The position numbers and the translations under genes are program-made. 64,000 nt of DNA from Clostridia bacterium (lineage in GTDB: Bacteria > Bacillota > Clostridia > UMGS1883 > UMGS1540), in the NCBI GenBank assembly GCA_017436645.1, contig JAFSCR010000012.1:1123-65122 (forward strand), given 5' to 3'. The notes below the pieces were generated by a model. The model worked only from the letters and a program-made list of their open reading frames with translations. It was not told where the DNA came from and did not search any database. Position 1 is the stretch's first letter. Each line of letters starts with the position of its first letter. Below are positions 28,409 to 34,066 of this stretch, piece after piece.

Positions 28409-28951
28409 ATGAAAAAATTTGTATGTGCAATCTGTGGTTATGTTCACGAAGGCAATGAAGCCCCTGCCGCTTGCCCCCAGTGCAAAGCGCCGGCTTCTAA
28501 ATTCTCCGAGCAGGCAGGCGAAAAATCCTGGGCTGCAGAACATATTGTAGGCGTAGCAAAAGGTGTAGACCCCGAAATCATCGAAGGTCTCCGCATGAAC
28601 TTTACAGGTGAATGCACCGAAGTCGGCATGTACCTTGCCATGGCAAGAGTTGCCCATCGTGAAGGCTATCCCGAAATCGGTCTTTACTGGGAAAAGGCAG
28701 CTTATGAAGAAGCCGAACACGCTGCAAAGTTTGCAGAACTTCTCGGCGAAGTTGTAACCGACAGCACAAAGAAAAACCTGGAACTTCGCATTGACGCCGA
28801 AAACGGCGCAACACAGGGTAAATTTGACCTTGCAAAACGTGCAAAAGAACTGAATCTCGACGCTATTCACGACACCGTTCATGAAATGGCAAGGGATGAA
28901 GCAAGACATGGCAAGGCTTTCGAGGGACTTTTGAAGAGATATTTTGGTTAA
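28409..28951 (+). CDS. rbr: rubrerythrin-family protein with N-terminal rubredoxin-like CxxC...CxxC domain (reverse rubrerythrin)
   Basis: ORF track 28382..28951; start [15 protein letters not shown]... with GGAGGAATGAAAGT RBS; ferritin-like ExxH di-iron motifs ([22 protein letters not shown]). Confidence 0.8.
28895..28951 (+). repeat. direct repeat copy 1 (native rbr 3' end, encodes [18 protein letters not shown]-stop)
   Basis: 57-bp segment repeated at 30348-30404 and 34010-34066 with synonymous differences. Confidence 0.8.
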
Positions 28952-28978
28952 TCTAAAATGTTGAAATAACAACACTTA

Positions 28979-29034
28979 AAAACCCCTTAACAGTAGGCAT
29001 TACCTATTGTCAAGGGGTTTAATTTTTATATTTT
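28979..29034 (+). terminator. terminator hairpin after rbr (AAACCCCTTAACA...TGTCAAGGGGTTT + T-rich)
   Basis: 13-bp imperfect inverted repeat followed by AATTTTTATATTTT. Confidence 0.4.
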
Positions 29035-29092
29035 CAAAATGGTTATTCAAATTGTGGTTGAAATCTCAACATTACAGTAAAATTGATGTTCA

Positions 29093-29232
29093 AACTGGCA
29101 ACAACTGGCGTTTTGAAGGTCATTTAAATAGTATTTTAGATACAACTGGCAACAAATTGCCGGTTAATCTCTTGAAAGTCTTGTCCTGCAAGGGTTTGAT
29201 GGTTGTTATAGAAGCAAATTTTGTTGCCAGTT
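29093..29232. repeat. three copies of 12-mer AACTGGCAACAA (two direct, one inverted); candidate arm-type recombinase or regulator binding sites
   Basis: AACTGGCAACAA at ~29093 and ~29144, TTGTTGCCAGTT at ~29221; also palindrome GTTGAAATCTCAAC at ~29057. Confidence 0.5.
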
Positions 29233-29325
29233 GCACACACTTTATGAAGTTAATTTATATAAACATATTTACATAATAGATAATTTAAGGTATAATTATA
29301 AAAAAATAAATTTGGAGGACTTTTT

Positions 29326-30273
29326 ATGAATAAGTCAGTAAAAATATTATCAATTATTTCTATTATACTTTCTCTCATAGGTGTTTTACTTGCTACAGCA
29401 ATTTTGACATTTCTTTGGGAGCCGATTAATGTTTTGTTAAATAGTCCTGAAGTTATTGCAAAAGCTACACCTATCATTCCAAGAGGAAATATGGTATATA
29501 TATTAGGATGTGTTATTATTTCTTTAGTTCTTCTTGCGAGTTATAAATCAAGAAAGTTTATTGTAATTGAGATTTTATCAATAGTTTTCTTAAGTTTTCT
29601 TCTTCCTTGTTTAACTTATAGACTTGAATTGAATCAAACTATGCTGGTAGGACATACTATGGGTAGCAATTCTATAGCTATCTTAGGGACTGCAAATAGT
29701 ATAATGGCTATTCCAGTAGGTTTTGTAAACTTGTCCGTTGCATTGAGCTTGATAACAAGCGGAATTAGAATTATAGAAAAAGTTTTTTCGAACAAGAAAA
29801 TACCGATTAATGTATTATCAATAATTTCGGTAATTATTTCTGCTATTTCATTTTTGATTTCGATAGCTGTATTAACAATCTTCTGGGAACCAATGGTTTC
29901 ACTCTATGTTTCCTCAGTTGATATTATTAATTACCGACCGATTTTACCTATTGGAAGTGTTTTATACATAGTTGCTTGCTTAATTATCTCGATTATTCTT
30001 GTAATTAGCAAAAAATCAAATGGATCTTTTGCAATTGAGATTATCACAATGTCATTGTTGGGCTTCGGAGTTCCGGTTTTGATGTGGATTTTAAATTTGG
30101 TGCAACAATTTAACGTAAACGCTATTGGCGTCAGTGCTGTAACAGAATTTCTTATATCAAACAAGGTGCTTGTATCTTCAATTGGTATTATGAAATTATC
30201 TTCAGCTATATGCTTGGTGGTTTGTGGAATGCGAATAGCATACAAAAACAATTATAAAAAAACAATGCAGTAA
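29326..30273 (+). CDS. integral membrane protein with internal tandem duplication (2 x ~155 aa), unknown function
   Basis: halves align: VKILSIISIILSLIGVLLATAILTFLWEPINVLL...PIIPRGNMVYILGCVIISLVLLASYKS versus INVLSIISVIISAISFLISIAVLTIFWEPMVSLY...PILPIGSVLYIVACLIISIILVISKKS; RBS GGAGGA. Confidence 0.6.
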   Translation: MNKSVKILSIISIILSLIGVLLATAILTFLWEPINVLLNSPEVIAKATPIIPRGNMVYILGCVIISLVLLASYKSRKFIVIEILSIVFLSFLLPCLTYRLELNQTMLVGHTMGSNSIAILGTANSIMAIPVGFVNLSVALSLITSGIRIIEKVFSNKKIPINVLSIISVIISAISFLISIAVLTIFWEPMVSLYVSSVDIINYRPILPIGSVLYIVACLIISIILVISKKSNGSFAIEIITMSLLGFGVPVLMWILNLVQQFNVNAIGVSAVTEFLISNKVLVSSIGIMKLSSAICLVVCGMRIAYKNNYKKTMQ

Positions 30274-30347
30274 ATGGCTATTGATAAAAATTAGTCCACG
30301 TTGAATTTACAGCAAAAAACTGATAAATTCAATTTGATAATAACTAT

Positions 30348-30404
30348 GACGAAGCTCGTCACGGCAAGGCATTCGAAGGTCTTTTAAAGAGATACTTTAA
30401 GTAA
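30348..30404 (+). repeat. direct repeat copy 2 (encodes [18 protein letters not shown]-stop, AT-rich codons)
   Basis: GACGAAGCTCGTCACGGCAAGGCATTCGAAGGTCTTTTAAAGAGATACTTTAAGTAA. Confidence 0.8.
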
Positions 30405-30473
30405 GATACAAAAACCAACAGGAGCAAAGGCTTTGAGCCTTTGCTCCTTGTCTTTTCCATATATTTGGATTTG

Positions 30474-31010
30474 TTAGTTTAATTTATGCAATAAAAAGTA
30501 AGGTTTCCTTCCCACTTGAATCAAATTTGTCACATCAGAAATATCATAATCGTTCTTTTTATACACTTGCAAAAATTCCTGTTCGCTTGAATAAATCATT
30601 TCTTGTCCATACCACGATTTAGATGATTGCGGAGTAAGCTCTAAATATACTGCTTTACCTTCTGCAACAAATGTAAGTATTGTATGTACTTTGTTTTTCT
30701 TCTTGTTATATATTAACCATATTTTATTCGAAACACTTAGATTATCAAGAATTGATTTCATTACTACGACAGCATCTACACAGGTCCCGATTTTTTCCTT
30801 CAGCGTGACAGACGGATCTTGAACCGTGTAAATCGTTTTAGAAAAATGATCGTATTCTTTGTCAAAACCCTTATCCATGTTTGGCTTGTATTTTTTACCT
30901 TCCACAATAAAGCCATATTCAAAACCGTTGTTATATAATTCCGCCCGCAGTATATCACATATTTCTTTGATGCTCATTTTTGTATTTTCCCCGTCCATGT
31001 TTATATTCAA
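30474..31010 (-). CDS. hypothetical protein (178 aa), possible Cys/His hydrolase fold
   Basis: ORF in island 2 on the opposite strand; contains GTCVDAVVVM (Cys) and KVHTILTF (His) about 37 aa apart, loosely papain/NlpC-like spacing; no firm family assignment. Confidence 0.4.
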   Translation of the reverse strand: MNINMDGENTKMSIKEICDILRAELYNNGFEYGFIVEGKKYKPNMDKGFDKEYDHFSKTIYTVQDPSVTLKEKIGTCVDAVVVMKSILDNLSVSNKIWLIYNKKKNKVHTILTFVAEGKAVYLELTPQSSKSWYGQEMIYSSEQEFLQVYKKNDYDISDVTNLIQVGRKPYFLLHKLN

Positions 31011-31180
31011 ACCGCTTTTATGCCTTCAGTATATCATAAGTGCGCTGCTATTTCAATACAGATCATGGTGTTTTGTCTACTTAAAACTAAAAAATATATC
31101 ATGTAAAAGAAAATGGTGAAATGCTGGCACACAAAATCTCCTATTTTTATTTAACTTTCTTAAGCCTTTGCGAAAATATA

Positions 31181-31209
31181 TTGAATTTATATGATGTTTG
31201 TGTTATAAT
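31181..31209 (+). promoter_or_regulatory. promoter TTGAAT-17-TATAAT upstream of the XRE-Fic-DUF262-HEPN cassette
   Basis: near-consensus hexamers with 17-nt spacer about 30 nt before the XRE gene. Confidence 0.45.
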
Positions 31210-31242
31210 ATAGAATAATGAATTATAATTGAGGTGACCATT

Positions 31243-31452
31243 TTGACTATATCTTATAATAAGCTATGGAAATTATTGATAGATAAAAAACTAAGTAAGG
31301 TTGCCTTGCGTAAAAATGCCGATATTGCACCAAATACAATGACAAAGTTACGGCGAGATGAGCCGGTTTCTATGTTGATACTTTTAAAAATAGCTGAATA
31401 TCTGGAATGTGATATAAGTGATATGTGTGAATTTGTAAAGGAGGAAAAGTAA
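31243..31452 (+). CDS. XRE-family helix-turn-helix DNA-binding protein (Cro/CI-type)
   Basis: ORF track 31234..31452 (GTG); TTG at 31243 has better RBS spacing (GAGGTGA). HTH_3/HTH_26-like LSKVALRKNADIAPNTMTKLRRDE; stop 1 nt before the Fic start. Confidence 0.65.
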   Translation: MTISYNKLWKLLIDKKLSKVALRKNADIAPNTMTKLRRDEPVSMLILLKIAEYLECDISDMCEFVKEEK

Positions 31453-31453
31453 T

Positions 31454-32182
31454 ATGAACTTTGAGAGAATACAAAAAAAGAAACTTAAATACGAACAAAA
31501 CAAGCATAAGATAAGTCCGATTACTTTATCTTCCTACGAAAAAGATTTTGAGCTTACTTTTACTCACAATTCAACTGCTATTGAAGGAAACACTCTGACT
31601 CTCATGGAAACAAAAGTTGTTTTGGAAGACGGAGTTGCAATAGGCGGAAAAGAGCTTCGTGAAATATACGAGGTTATTAATCATAAAAAAGCATATGGTT
31701 ATGTAAAAAAATGCATTGCAGAAAAGAAACCCATAGATGAGAATATCGTTAAAGACCTACATGCAATACTTACAGAAAATATAATAGTTGGCGGTATATA
31801 CAGGAATGAAGAAGTTCGTATAAGCGGTGCGGGATTTACACCTCCTGCCGGAAACGAAATGTATATGCAGATTAAAAAGTTCTATGAAGATTTAAAAATA
31901 AAAGAAAAAGAATTAAACACGATAGAACTTGCTGCATGGACACATGCTGAGTTTGTACGAATTCACCCATTTGTTGACGGTAACGGAAGAACAGGCCGCC
32001 TGATTATGAATTATCAGCTTTTGCTTAACGGATACCTGCCCGTTTCTGTTGCCAAGGAAAATAGACTTGAGTACTATAATGCGCTTGAACAATATGCAGT
32101 AAATGGAGATTTGGCTGTTTTTGCGGACTTCGTTGCAGAATTAGAAGAAGTGCAGTTAGATGAATACATGAAATTGATGTAA
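31454..32182 (+). CDS. Fic/Doc family protein (Fido domain), class II with N-terminal inhibitory motif
   Basis: active-site HPFVDGNGRTGR fits HxFx(D/E)GNGRxxR; inhibitory-helix motif STAIEG fits (S/T)xxxE(G/N) about 40 aa from the N-terminus. Confidence 0.85.
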   Translation: MNFERIQKKKLKYEQNKHKISPITLSSYEKDFELTFTHNSTAIEGNTLTLMETKVVLEDGVAIGGKELREIYEVINHKKAYGYVKKCIAEKKPIDENIVKDLHAILTENIIVGGIYRNEEVRISGAGFTPPAGNEMYMQIKKFYEDLKIKEKELNTIELAAWTHAEFVRIHPFVDGNGRTGRLIMNYQLLLNGYLPVSVAKENRLEYYNALEQYAVNGDLAVFADFVAELEEVQLDEYMKLM

Positions 32183-32239
32183 TACGTCTGGAATAATAAT
32201 ATAGTTTGAGTAATATAATATTAGGAGGAAAACATAAAC

Positions 32240-33394
32240 ATGGATACTAATTGGTATGTAGATTATAATGATGATATGGAGGAAAGCGTGAAAGAATACG
32301 ATATAACAGCGACTCCAAACGATTTTAATATTATGACAATTTTTAGTTTGATTGATAATGGAGTAATTAAAATGCCTCCATTTCAACGCAATTATGTATG
32401 GGATGAAAAAAGGGCATCTAAACTCATAGAGTCTATTATATTAGGATTGCCGGTTCCTCAAGTATTTTTATATGAACAGGATAAAAATAGCTTTTATGTC
32501 ATTGATGGTCAGCAACGCCTTTTATCAATATACTTTTTCATAAAACAAAGATTTCCAACAAAAGAGGGAAAAGTAGCTCTCAGGCAATATCTTATGGGGG
32601 ATACAAAGATTAATGATGAGATTTTGGCTGACGATAAACTTTTTAGAAACTTCAAACTCAGATTACCTGCTTTAGCAAACGAGGAACAAAACAAATTTGA
32701 TAAATTAAAATACGACCAATTGGGTGATTATAAAAATACATTTGAAATAATGAGAACAATACGTTCAGTTGTTATTAAGCAAAACGAACCAGATGACGAT
32801 TCTTCTATTTATGAGATATTTAATAGGTTAAATACCGGCGGGCAGAATCTATCTCCTCAGGAAATAAGAATGAGTTTATATTATTCAGAATTCTACAAAG
32901 AACTGATTCATTTAAACGAAAATCCTGTATGGAGAAAATTTTTAAGAAGAGATGTTTGTGATGTTCATTTTAAAGATGTTGAGATATTGCTACGTGCATT
33001 CGCAATGTTGTTAGAATACAAATCATATCGTTCTCCTATGGGTAAATTTCTTAACACATTCTCAAAAAAGACAAGTAATTTTAAAAGTGAAACATTAAGC
33101 TATTTATCGTCGTTGTTTTTATCATTCTTAGATAGTTGTAAAAATTTAGATGATAATATTTTCTGTACAAAAAATGGACAGTTTGCAATTTCTTTGTTTG
33201 AGGCGGTATTTGTCGCTGCATGTTACAAATGTTTGGAAGAGAAGAAGACCTTAGACGGAAATCTTAGTCAAGATAGCATTTTAGAATTAAAAGAAAATAA
33301 AAAGTTTATAGACTCAAATCAAGGCAGTGTTGCCTCAAAAACAAACTTAACAACACGAATCGAAAAAGCAATTGAGATAATTAAGTTTGAATAG
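32240..33394 (+). CDS. DUF262 (ParB/Srx-like nuclease-fold, GmrSD N-terminal-type) domain protein
   Basis: hallmark motifs PFQRNYVWD and DGQQRL in the first 100 aa; 384 aa; no DUF1524/HNH C-terminal partner domain recognised. Confidence 0.75.
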   Translation: MDTNWYVDYNDDMEESVKEYDITATPNDFNIMTIFSLIDNGVIKMPPFQRNYVWDEKRASKLIESIILGLPVPQVFLYEQDKNSFYVIDGQQRLLSIYFFIKQRFPTKEGKVALRQYLMGDTKINDEILADDKLFRNFKLRLPALANEEQNKFDKLKYDQLGDYKNTFEIMRTIRSVVIKQNEPDDDSSIYEIFNRLNTGGQNLSPQEIRMSLYYSEFYKELIHLNENPVWRKFLRRDVCDVHFKDVEILLRAFAMLLEYKSYRSPMGKFLNTFSKKTSNFKSETLSYLSSLFLSFLDSCKNLDDNIFCTKNGQFAISLFEAVFVAACYKCLEEKKTLDGNLSQDSILELKENKKFIDSNQGSVASKTNLTTRIEKAIEIIKFE

Positions 33395-33404
33395 GAGGTT
33401 TTTT

Positions 33405-33923
33405 ATGTCATCTCCTATTCAAAAATTTATTGAAGATTATAAGAATTTAAATAATTTTCTTATTTCGAATGGACAAATTTCATCTTCGGTAGATATAAAT
33501 GAACATTACAGAAAAATTCTTCTATTATCCTGTGCCAGTTATTATGAAACGCAGATAATTGATATTTTGAAAGCGTTTGTAAAACTAAATTCTACTGACG
33601 ATAGAATATTTTCGTTTATGAATAATAAAGCTATTCAACGGCAGTATTATACATATTTTGATTGGGATCAAACAAGTAATATAAATAAATTTTTAGGAAT
33701 GTTTGGTGAAGAATTCAAAACAACGATTTCGAACGAAATAAAGAGAAATAATGATTTAACATTGCAAGTAAAAGCTTTTCTTGAAATAGGTTCAGAAAGA
33801 AATAAAATGGTTCATAGGAATTTTTTGGAATATAAACTTGATAAAACATTTGATGAAATTACAGAGCTACATAATAAAGCACAATTATTTATAGAGTATA
33901 TAAGACAAAAATTATGCGATTAA
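33405..33923 (+). CDS. HEPN-like protein (Rx4H motif, MAE_28990/Abi-like), putative RNase partner of DUF262
   Basis: ORF track 33387..33923; start MSSPIQKF with AGGAGG RBS 6 nt upstream, 10 nt after the DUF262 stop. Candidate HEPN motif ERNKMVHRNF (R-x4-H) near the C-terminus; all-helical character. Confidence 0.5.
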   Translation: MSSPIQKFIEDYKNLNNFLISNGQISSSVDINEHYRKILLLSCASYYETQIIDILKAFVKLNSTDDRIFSFMNNKAIQRQYYTYFDWDQTSNINKFLGMFGEEFKTTISNEIKRNNDLTLQVKAFLEIGSERNKMVHRNFLEYKLDKTFDEITELHNKAQLFIEYIRQKLCD

Positions 33924-34009
33924 ATTTTCTTGCATAATTTTACAAAATATGCTATAATAAAACTATAAAACAGATGCAACGACAAAAGACTTTTTGATTG
34001 GACCTCTGT

Positions 34010-34066
34010 GACGAAGCTCGACACGGTAAGGCATTCGAAGGTCTTTTAAAGAGATACTTTGGTTAA
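34010..34066 (+). repeat. direct repeat copy 3 (encodes [18 protein letters not shown]-stop)
   Basis: GACGAAGCTCGACACGGTAAGGCATTCGAAGGTCTTTTAAAGAGATACTTTGGTTAA; immediately followed by the RBS of the bfd-like gene. Confidence 0.8.

What the first reader, a model, noticed from the sequence alone, without database searches (positions are those of the whole stretch)
32240..33923. DUF262 (ParB-like) protein lacking a DUF1524/HNH partner domain, translationally coupled to a small HEPN-like protein
The DUF262 hallmarks PFQRNYVWD and DGQQRL are present. GmrSD-type enzymes normally fuse DUF262 to a C-terminal DUF1524 nuclease domain. Here the 384-aa protein has no such domain recognisable. A 172-aa helical ORF follows 10 nt later with a strong AGGAGG RBS and contains ERNKMVHRNF, a candidate Rx4-6H HEPN RNase motif. 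This could be a split architecture in which an RNase replaces the DNase module.
Basis: partly seen in the sequence, partly recalled or inferred. Interest (0 to 1): 0.7.

Follow-up and report, generated by a model that had tools for sequence, protein, structure and literature searches.

The report
DUF262–HEPN (PD-T4-2-like) defence gene pair
This is a two-gene module, a ParB-like DUF262 NTPase with no nuclease domain followed by a small HEPN RNase-family protein. The pairing was described in 2013, and a version of it (PD-T4-2) was shown in 2022 to protect E. coli from phage T4, so this is a correct reading of an ordinary, already-known kind of system.

Summary
ORF1 (32240-33394, 384 aa) is a DUF262/GmrSD_N protein with all three motifs (QRxxxW, DGQQR, FxxxN). 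It has a helical C-terminal domain and no DUF1524/HNH module. ORF2 (33405-33923, 172 aa) starts 10 nt after ORF1's stop, and an AGGAGG overlaps that stop codon.

The HEPN guess is right:
- ORF2 hits Pfam HEPN_RiboL-PSP at 72 bits (cut-off 28.4).
- Its confident AF2 model (pLDDT 89) has mostly HEPN-fold proteins among its top PDB matches.
- R132/N133/H137 (Rx4H) are 97-99% conserved across 147 cluster representatives.

The pairing is conserved. In 75 of 79 assessable genome loci from many bacterial phyla and three archaea, a full-length DUF262 homologue lies directly upstream on the same strand.

The architecture is not new. Anantharaman et al. 2013 listed "Ribo L-PSP-HEPN: operon with ParB". 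Vassallo et al. 2022 validated PD-T4-2 (DUF262 + HEPN_RiboL-PSP) as anti-T4 defence. PGAP already annotates such pairs on plasmids.

The likely mechanism is inferred, not shown: a DNA-sensing ParB-like NTPase licenses a HEPN RNase effector.

The pair sits in a low-GC island inserted at the 3' end of a rubrerythrin gene, next to an HTH-Fic module.

Verdict: a new, divergent member of a known kind. Interest is low.

The parts
32240..33394 (+). ORF1, 384 aa: ParB-like DUF262 protein (component A). It has no nuclease domain.
32336..32881 (+). DUF262 (ParB/Srx-fold NTPase-type) domain, residues 33-214. It carries QRxxxW (48-54), DGQQR (89-93) and FxxxN (194-198).
   Evidence: Domain limits come and motif positions. 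All motif residues are invariant in the 39-sequence alignment A2.
32882..33391 (+). Helical C-terminal domain of ORF1, residues about 215-384. It is probably the 'ParBDB' DNA-binding domain described for NsnA, GmrSD-M and SspE-M. It is not a nuclease.
   Evidence: The NsnA and PD-T4-2_A profiles align through to residues 381-382. The AF2 model is all-helical here, with pLDDT about 80-97. There is no DUF1524 hit at E<=1. The domain concept comes from PMC12065111. The DNA-binding role is inferred.
33392..33407 (+). Gene junction: TAG stop of ORF1, AGGAGG overlapping it (33393-33398), a T6 spacer, then the ATG of ORF2.
   Evidence: Read directly from the sequence. Annotated relatives have gene junctions ranging from an 8-nt overlap to an 11-nt gap.
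33405..33923 (+). ORF2, 172 aa: HEPN_RiboL-PSP family protein (component B, putative RNase effector).
33798..33815 (+). HEPN catalytic motif R132-N133-K-M-V-H137 (Rx4H).
   Evidence: R132, N133 and H137 are invariant in 38 homologues. They are 99%, 97% and 99% conserved in 147 representatives of 50%-identity clusters that share 29-54% identity with ORF2.
30344..30403 (+). Left boundary of the low-GC island that carries the pair: a duplicated copy of the rubrerythrin gene's 3' end.
   Evidence: Direct-repeat family D1, alignment A3 and the GC drop to 0.25-0.33.
34006..34065 (+). Right boundary of the island: the third copy of the rubrerythrin 3' end, 95% identical to the copy at 30344.

Best explanation
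The two genes form a PD-T4-2-type, two-component anti-phage module carried on a small horizontally acquired island. Component A (ORF1) is a ParB-like DUF262 NTPase joined to a helical, probably DNA-binding domain. By analogy with GmrSD, BrxU and SspE, it senses some feature of invading DNA, such as a base or backbone modification, and changes conformation through NTP binding or hydrolysis. In those enzymes the signal goes to a fused DUF1524 DNase. Here it would go to the separately encoded component B (ORF2), a small HEPN protein. Like other HEPN RNases, ORF2 would dimerise to build a composite Rx4H active site and cut RNA (tRNA, rRNA or mRNA), stopping phage growth. Shown here: the domain identities, the intact catalytic and NTP-binding motifs, the absence of a DNase domain, the tight gene junction, and the conservation of the pair across phyla. 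Known from the literature: a DUF262 + HEPN_RiboL-PSP pair protects E. coli against T4. Inferred: the division of labour between sensor and effector, the RNase activity, the physical A-B interaction, and the trigger.
For: ORF1 is DUF262 with invariant QRxxxW, DGQQR and FxxxN motifs. Its best structural match is the GmrSD-family enzyme BrxU, followed by Srx, ParB proteins and SspE. ORF2 is HEPN_RiboL-PSP with a HEPN fold. Its R/N/H motif is 97-99% conserved across 147 divergent representatives, which indicates selection for catalysis. In 75 of 80 genome loci (79 assessable) from Bacillota, Cyanobacteria, Pseudomonadota, Chloroflexota, Bacteroidota, Actinomycetota, other phyla and 3 archaea, a full-length DUF262 homologue lies directly upstream on the same strand. 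Nothing else is conserved around the pair in most loci. The same pair at 91-93% identity sits in a different island, next to an integrase fragment and a Schlafen/AlbA_2 protein. Other copies lie between two serine recombinases and on plasmids, so the mobile unit is the pair. The literature gives three supports: 'Ribo L-PSP-HEPN ... operon with ParB' (PMC3710099); PD-T4-2A = PF03235 and PD-T4-2B = PF18735 by HHpred; and deletion of PD-T4-2 in ECOR65 restores T4 plaquing (PMC9519451). The local context is a low-GC island beside an HTH-Fic module that matches the PADLOC candidates PDC-S04 and SoFic.
Against: No experiment exists for this lineage. The mechanism of PD-T4-2 itself is uncharacterised in the searched literature. 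ORF2 does not hit the PADLOC PD-T4-2_B profile at E<=1. Only three of the relatives tested hit it weakly (5e-4 to 6e-3), so direct homology to the validated B protein rests on shared Pfam family membership. ORF1 scores better against the Menshen NsnA profile than against PD-T4-2_A. The A-B interaction was not modelled. The ORF1 model is only moderately confident (pLDDT 76.7, and below 50 for residues 182-212, which include FxxxN).
Confidence: 0.75

Rival explanations
1. The pair is a toxin-antitoxin style addiction or stabilisation module. The HEPN protein is a constitutive toxin that the DUF262 protein neutralises, and its main role is to maintain the island or plasmid rather than to sense phage DNA.
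Against: The validated relative PD-T4-2 is a chromosomal phage-defence system. The upstream partner is a 384-aa protein with invariant NTP-binding motifs, which is far more machinery than an antitoxin needs. TA and abortive-infection roles are also not mutually exclusive.
Confidence: 0.1
2. The pair is the 'restriction' arm of a cytosine-methylation-linked system. DUF262 reads the C5-methylation state set by a partner methyltransferase, and the copy in this window is an orphan remnant that has lost its methylase.
For: In 15 of 80 genome loci a C5 DNA methyltransferase is nearby, co-oriented upstream in most. A Vsr homologue is nearby in 10 of 80. In L018, L024, L049 and L056/L083 the methylase abuts the DUF262 gene with no ORF between. 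[quoted passage not shown]
Against: About 80% of loci, PD-T4-2 itself and this window have no linked methylase. tblastn of the methylase representative against the whole 64-kb window finds nothing at E<=1. In several loci a 260-415 aa ORF lies beside the methylase and could be an ordinary restriction enzyme, in which case the linkage is only defence-island clustering.
Confidence: 0.1
3. ORF1 is itself the effector, a ParB-like nuclease acting on DNA, and the HEPN protein is a non-catalytic adaptor or RNA-binding regulator.
For: ParB-fold proteins were historically annotated as nucleases (PMC3710099 calls them 'ParB nuclease'). Some HEPN families are catalytically inactive (same table).
Against: R132, N133 and H137 are almost invariant across the family, which argues for a catalytic HEPN. 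In GmrSD, BrxU and SspE the DUF262 domain is the NTPase/sensor and cleavage is done by DUF1524 (PMC10952713; PMC12065111).
Confidence: 0.05

Closest known systems
PD-T4-2 (Vassallo et al. 2022, E. coli ECOR65)
   Same: It is also a two-gene, co-oriented system. Gene A is DUF262 (PF03235) without DUF1524 and gene B is a protein of about 165-170 aa assigned to HEPN_RiboL-PSP (PF18735). ORF1 matches the PADLOC PD-T4-2_A profile at 2.7e-39 through to its C-terminus.
   Different: ORF2 does not match the PADLOC PD-T4-2_B profile, so the B proteins are very divergent. The host here is a low-GC Clostridia MAG, not an enterobacterium. Phage specificity is unknown.
Ribo L-PSP-HEPN / MAE_28990 HEPN families in ParB operons (Anantharaman et al. 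2013)
   Same: This is exactly the catalogued association: a HEPN protein with a conserved Rx4-6H motif encoded next to a ParB(DUF262) gene. E. coli IncF plasmids carry the MAE_28990 variant.
   Different: That work was a computational catalogue only. It assigned no function beyond a predicted role in defence or R-M systems.
Menshen NsnA (NsnABC system)
   Same: ORF1 aligns end to end with the NsnA profile (1.7e-55, residues 12-382). It therefore has the same two-domain chassis, ParB-DUF262 plus a helical 'ParBDB' domain.
   Different: No NsnB ATPase or NsnC effector gene follows. A HEPN gene follows instead, and host genes come after it.
GmrSD / BrxU / SspE (type IV restriction and PT-sensing enzymes)
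   Different: Those enzymes carry a fused DUF1524 His-Me finger DNase. ORF1 has none, and the putative effector is a separate RNase-family protein.
HEPN-MNT and other small HEPN toxins (e.g. 5yep, 7ae2, 8xdj)
   Different: Their partner is a nucleotidyltransferase antitoxin. Here the partner is a DUF262 protein, and sequence identity is only 11-15%.

Membership tests
PD-T4-2 type system (DUF262 + HEPN_RiboL-PSP) | Gene A is a DUF262/GmrSD_N protein that lacks a DUF1524 nuclease domain | tested here: met
PD-T4-2 type system (DUF262 + HEPN_RiboL-PSP) | Gene A matches the PD-T4-2_A profile | tested here: met
   PADLOC PDLC04027 at E 2.7e-39, in two stretches, reaching profile position 361 of 363. 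The NsnA profile scores higher (1.7e-55). The same holds for every HEPN-linked DUF262 protein tested.
PD-T4-2 type system (DUF262 + HEPN_RiboL-PSP) | Gene B belongs to HEPN_RiboL-PSP (PF18735) and has the Rx4-6H motif | tested here: met
   72 bits against a cut-off of 28.4. R132-x4-H137 is conserved. The fold is HEPN. Vassallo's HHpred table assigns PD-T4-2B to PF18735.
PD-T4-2 type system (DUF262 + HEPN_RiboL-PSP) | Gene B matches the PD-T4-2_B profile used by defence-finder software | tested here: not met
   ORF2 has no PADLOC hit at E<=1. Three relatives (L048, L067, L094) reach only 5e-4 to 6e-3. The profile looks narrow, because the HEPN partners on enterobacterial IncX1 plasmids miss it too.
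PD-T4-2 type system (DUF262 + HEPN_RiboL-PSP) | A and B are adjacent, co-oriented and conserved as a pair | tested here: met
   The gap is 10 nt. The pair is conserved in 75 of 79 assessable genome loci, and further pairs occur on plasmids and metagenome contigs.
PD-T4-2 type system (DUF262 + HEPN_RiboL-PSP) | Confers resistance to phage | not testable with these tools
   This needs cloning and phage challenge.
Menshen (NsnABC) | An NsnA-like gene is followed by an NsnB ATPase and an NsnC effector | tested here: not met
   ORF1 is NsnA-like. Downstream come HEPN and then Fer2_BFD and PAP2 host genes, with no ATPase.
GmrSD-family type IV restriction enzymes | DUF262 is fused to, or paired with, a DUF1524 His-Me finger nuclease | tested here: not met
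   No DUF1524 is present in ORF1 or in any of the island's proteins that were scanned.
HEPN superfamily RNases | An all-alpha HEPN fold with a conserved Rx4-6H motif | tested here: met
HEPN superfamily RNases | Metal-independent endoribonuclease activity | not testable with these tools
   This needs biochemistry.

The most novel reading that the evidence does not exclude
DUF262 + RiboL-PSP-HEPN pairs may form a much larger, cross-domain class than current defence-finder profiles capture. In this class a reader of DNA modification state would be wired to an RNA-cleaving effector. In the roughly one-fifth of loci where the pair sits directly behind a C5 methyltransferase (with or without Vsr), it would act as the 'restriction' half of an R-M-like system whose output is RNA cleavage rather than DNA cleavage.
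Probability: 0.2. Interest if true: 0.55.

Novelty: new member of a known kind. Interest (0 to 1): 0.2.

Why it matters
For this window it matters little. The region is a small defence island with a recognisable, previously described two-gene system.

Three general points have modest value:
- **Under-calling by software.** The PADLOC profile for the HEPN component of PD-T4-2 misses this protein and most of the relatives tested, although all those scanned against Pfam pass the family cut-off. Automated defence annotation therefore under-calls the class.
- **Breadth.** The HEPN sub-family spans many bacterial phyla and some archaea (at least 163 species genomes and 815 clusters at 50% identity). 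It is almost always locked to a DUF262 gene, which makes it a clean model for asking how a ParB-like NTPase controls an RNase.
- **A lead on the trigger.** The recurrent linkage to C5 methyltransferases hints at what the DUF262 sensor reads.

The mechanism of PD-T4-2-type systems is still unknown, so a biochemical study would be new. This locus adds no special handle for one.

Tried and rejected
- **PADLOC scan of ORF2.** No hit at E<=1, so PD-T4-2_B membership could not be shown by profile.
- **hhalign of the ORF2 family alignment against the IncX1 plasmid HEPN protein.** Not significant (probability 1.3%). The two are linked only through PF18735.
- **Getting the real ECOR65 PD-T4-2 sequences.** This failed. 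Only accessions are given in the paper's supplement, and the E. coli collection cannot be searched with a protein.
- **Profile searches of both families against PDB sequences.** No meaningful hits.
- **NCBIfam.** No family for ORF2, and only a sub-threshold DGQHR hit for ORF1.
- **Rfam scan of the island.** Nothing near a gathering score.
- **Promoter and terminator scan.** Counts are no higher than in shuffled sequence. One good promoter-like site at 31181-31209 lies ahead of the HTH gene, and no terminator follows ORF2.
- **Search for a linked methylase or Vsr in the window.** None found.
- **Menshen and GmrSD membership.** Both considered and rejected, because partner genes or domains are missing.
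- **Prediction of the A-B complex.** Not possible with the tools offered.

Full report
**Observation**

ORF1 runs 32240-33394 on the + strand and is 384 aa. It contains PFQRNYVWD from residue 47, DGQQRL from residue 89 and FNRLN from residue 194. These are the three DUF262 motifs QRxxxW, DGxQR and FxxxN (motif definitions from PMC12065111).

Its TAG stop (33392-33394) is overlapped by AGGAGG (33393-33398). Six T follow, and the ATG of ORF2 is at 33405, so the gap is 10 nt. ORF2 runs 33405-33923 and is 172 aa. The mechanical ORF list extends it to a TTG at 33387, but 37 homologues align from the ATG-encoded methionine. ERNKMVHRNF begins at residue 131.

**What the proteins are: ORF1**

- With the E-value limit at 1, ORF1 hits only Pfam GmrSD_N/DUF262 (PF03235, E 2.3e-33, residues 33-214). 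There is no DUF1524/GmrSD_C or HNH match.
- No DHxxP or HNH-type pattern is present.
- In PADLOC it aligns end to end with NsnA, the DUF262 component of Menshen (1.7e-55), and with PD-T4-2_A (2.7e-39).
- It also matches PHROG 2598 (4.6e-83).
- All three motif blocks are invariant in a 39-sequence alignment.
- The C-terminal 170 residues are helical and confidently modelled. Because the NsnA and PD-T4-2_A profiles align through them, they correspond to the 'ParBDB' domain that Li et al. 2025 propose as a DNA-binding module shared by NsnA, GmrSD and SspE. That assignment is by homology to the profiles, not by direct test.

**What the proteins are: ORF2**

- ORF2 hits Pfam HEPN_RiboL-PSP (PF18735) at 72 bits against a cut-off of 28.4 (E 8.1e-20), over the whole protein.
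- It also matches PHROG 15536 (1.4e-48).
- Its AF2 model is confident (pLDDT 89.3, pTM 0.84, eight helices).
- R132, N133 and H137 (RNxxxH) are invariant in 38 homologues.
- They are 99%, 97% and 99% conserved in 147 representatives of 50%-identity clusters, which share only 29-54% identity with ORF2.

**Is the pairing conserved?**

A scan of one genome per species (185,579 species) with two peptide patterns found 163 genomes that encode an ORF2 relative. This is a lower bound, because the search depends on the patterns. The best 80 loci come from Bacillota, Cyanobacteria, Pseudomonadota, Chloroflexota, Bacteroidota, Actinomycetota, Nitrospirota, Planctomycetota and others, plus three archaea (L016, L021, L027).

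In 75 of these 80 loci a full-length DUF262 homologue (query residues about 3-382) lies immediately upstream on the same strand. The five exceptions are:

| Locus | What is upstream |
|---|---|
| L008 | The contig ends at the HEPN gene, so it cannot be assessed |
| L007 | Only the last 35 codons of the DUF262 gene remain |
| L037, L071, L074 | Other genes lie upstream |

This gives 75 of 79 assessable loci. Annotated examples show junctions from an 8-nt overlap to an 11-nt gap.

The pair travels as a unit through different contexts:
- in this window, with an HTH-Fic module;
- at 91-93% identity, next to an integrase fragment and a Schlafen/AlbA_2 protein (L090);
- between two serine recombinases, with an HTH, a C5 methylase and a 412-aa ORF (L001);
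- on Exiguobacterium, Hymenobacter and Phaeobacter plasmids and on enterobacterial IncX1 plasmids.

An exhaustive HMMER search of 1.84 billion cluster representatives finds 815 clusters at E<=1e-3 and 295 at E<=1e-30. Nearly all of the 150 listed are stand-alone proteins of about 170-190 aa.

**What is already known**

- Anantharaman et al. [quoted passage not shown] - Vassallo et al. 2022 isolated PD-T4-2 ('DUF262, HEPN') from E. coli ECOR65. Their HHpred table gives PD-T4-2A = PF03235 (99.7%) and PD-T4-2B = PF18735 HEPN_RiboL-PSP (97.8%). Deleting the system in its native strain restored T4 plaquing (PMC9519451).
- Reviews list PD-T4-2, Menshen and Dazbog as DUF262 systems that lack DUF1524 and remain uncharacterised (PMC10952713; PMC12065111).
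- I found no paper describing a mechanism for PD-T4-2.
- PGAP already labels such neighbours 'DUF262 domain-containing protein' and 'HEPN domain-containing protein'. A protein identical to ORF1 is in NCBI from a Clostridia MAG.

**Membership**

The locus meets the architectural definition of a PD-T4-2-type system:
- gene A is DUF262 without DUF1524 and matches the PD-T4-2_A profile;
- gene B is in PF18735 with an intact motif;
- the two genes are adjacent, co-oriented and conserved as a pair.

It fails one operational criterion. ORF2 does not hit the PADLOC PD-T4-2_B profile at E<=1. Of the sixteen relatives tested, only three reach it, at 5e-4 to 6e-3. The HEPN partners on enterobacterial IncX1 plasmids also miss that profile while passing PF18735. 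I therefore read this as a narrow profile over a fast-evolving effector, not as evidence of a different family. The ECOR65 sequences themselves could not be obtained for a direct comparison.

Menshen is excluded because no NsnB or NsnC gene follows. GmrSD-type enzymes are excluded because there is no DUF1524.

**Likely mechanism (inferred)**

In GmrSD, BrxU and SspE the DUF262 domain binds and hydrolyses NTPs and senses modified DNA. It then activates the fused DUF1524 nuclease. ORF1 keeps the NTP-binding motifs and the helical middle domain but ends where the nuclease would begin. An RNase-family protein with an intact active site is encoded 10 nt downstream and is co-inherited with it.

The most economical reading is a sensor (A) that licenses an RNase effector (B), with phage growth arrested by RNA cleavage. 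The text available here does not say whether PD-T4-2 acts by abortive infection or by direct immunity, so that is left open.

Three rivals were considered: a TA-like addiction module, an orphaned arm of a methylase-linked system, and ORF1 acting as the nuclease. Each is given lower weight, for the reasons listed under the rival explanations.

**Context**

The pair lies in a low-GC stretch (0.25-0.33, against 0.45-0.55 in the flanking sequence). Three copies of the last ~57 nt of the rubrerythrin gene are present, at about 28891, 30344 and 34006. They delimit two tandem insertions:
- one carries only a 315-aa multi-pass membrane protein;
- the other carries a 178-aa ORF, an HTH_26 regulator, a Fic protein (PADLOC PDC-S04 at 2.6e-44 and SoFic at 1.6e-30) and the DUF262-HEPN pair.

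No integrase is present. A promoter-like site at 31181-31209 precedes the HTH gene, but promoter-like sites are no more frequent here than in shuffled sequence.

**Verdict**

This is a new, divergent member of a known kind. Interest is low (0.2).

The residual novelty has two parts. Defence-finder profiles under-detect the class. And a minority of loci show operon-like linkage to C5 methyltransferases and Vsr (15 and 10 of 80 loci), which might point to what the sensor reads.

Noticed in passing
window 28891-28951, 30344-30403, 34006-34065: There are three copies of the last ~57 nt of the rubrerythrin gene, all encoding [17 protein letters not shown]. They bracket two low-GC segments (28952-30343 and 30404-34005), which look like tandem insertions into the 3' end of the gene. 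Neither segment has an integrase. Copies 2 and 3 are 95% identical to each other and 75% identical to the copy that ends the intact gene.
   Followed up: partly
window 31234-32182 (+): An HTH_26 regulator (72 aa) is followed 2 nt later by a Fic-domain protein (242 aa). The Fic protein matches the PADLOC candidate defence families PDC-S04 (2.6e-44) and SoFic (1.6e-30). This looks like a second defence-type module immediately upstream of the DUF262-HEPN pair. It does not travel with the pair elsewhere (L090, L001).
   Followed up: partly
window 29326-30273 (+) and 30474-31010 (-): A 315-aa multi-pass membrane protein with an internal duplication (repeat D3, 29422 and 29803) and a 178-aa protein have no significant hit in Pfam, NCBIfam, PADLOC or PHROGs. 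The 178-aa protein has only sub-threshold transglutaminase-like hits.
   Followed up: no
loci L011, L012, L018, L024, L038, L049, L056, L063, L064, L066, L083: In 15 of 80 genome loci a C5 DNA methyltransferase is near the DUF262-HEPN pair, and in the loci listed it sits co-oriented upstream of it. A Vsr homologue is nearby in 10 of 80. In L018, L024, L049 and L056/L083 the methylase abuts the DUF262 gene with nothing between. The window itself has no such methylase.
   Followed up: partly
L092 (E. coli IncX1 plasmid NZ_CP062857) 2923-4563; L091 (Salmonella pK43): IncX1 plasmids of E. coli and Salmonella carry a DUF262 (365 aa) + HEPN_RiboL-PSP (180 aa) pair immediately after, and overlapping the end of, the replication initiator gene. 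PADLOC finds NsnA and PD-T4-2_A for the first gene but nothing for the second.
   Followed up: partly
L095 (E. coli IncF plasmid NZ_CP137740) 3378-5078: A DUF262 protein (353 aa) is paired with a 211-aa 'MAE_28990/MAE_18760 family HEPN-like nuclease'. The same DUF262 chassis is therefore coupled to a second HEPN family.
   Followed up: no
L007 4021-4649: In one Ruminococcus MAG only the last ~35 codons of the DUF262 gene remain upstream of an intact HEPN gene, which suggests a deletion or insertion event. An intact HEPN gene without its partner seems to be tolerated there.
   Followed up: no
L071 3663-6231: This is one of the few HEPN relatives with no DUF262 neighbour. Instead it follows a 441-aa ORF and a 236-aa ORF, neither of which was identified. 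The first has an N-terminus that looks ATPase-like by eye. This could be an alternative partner set for this HEPN family.
   Followed up: no
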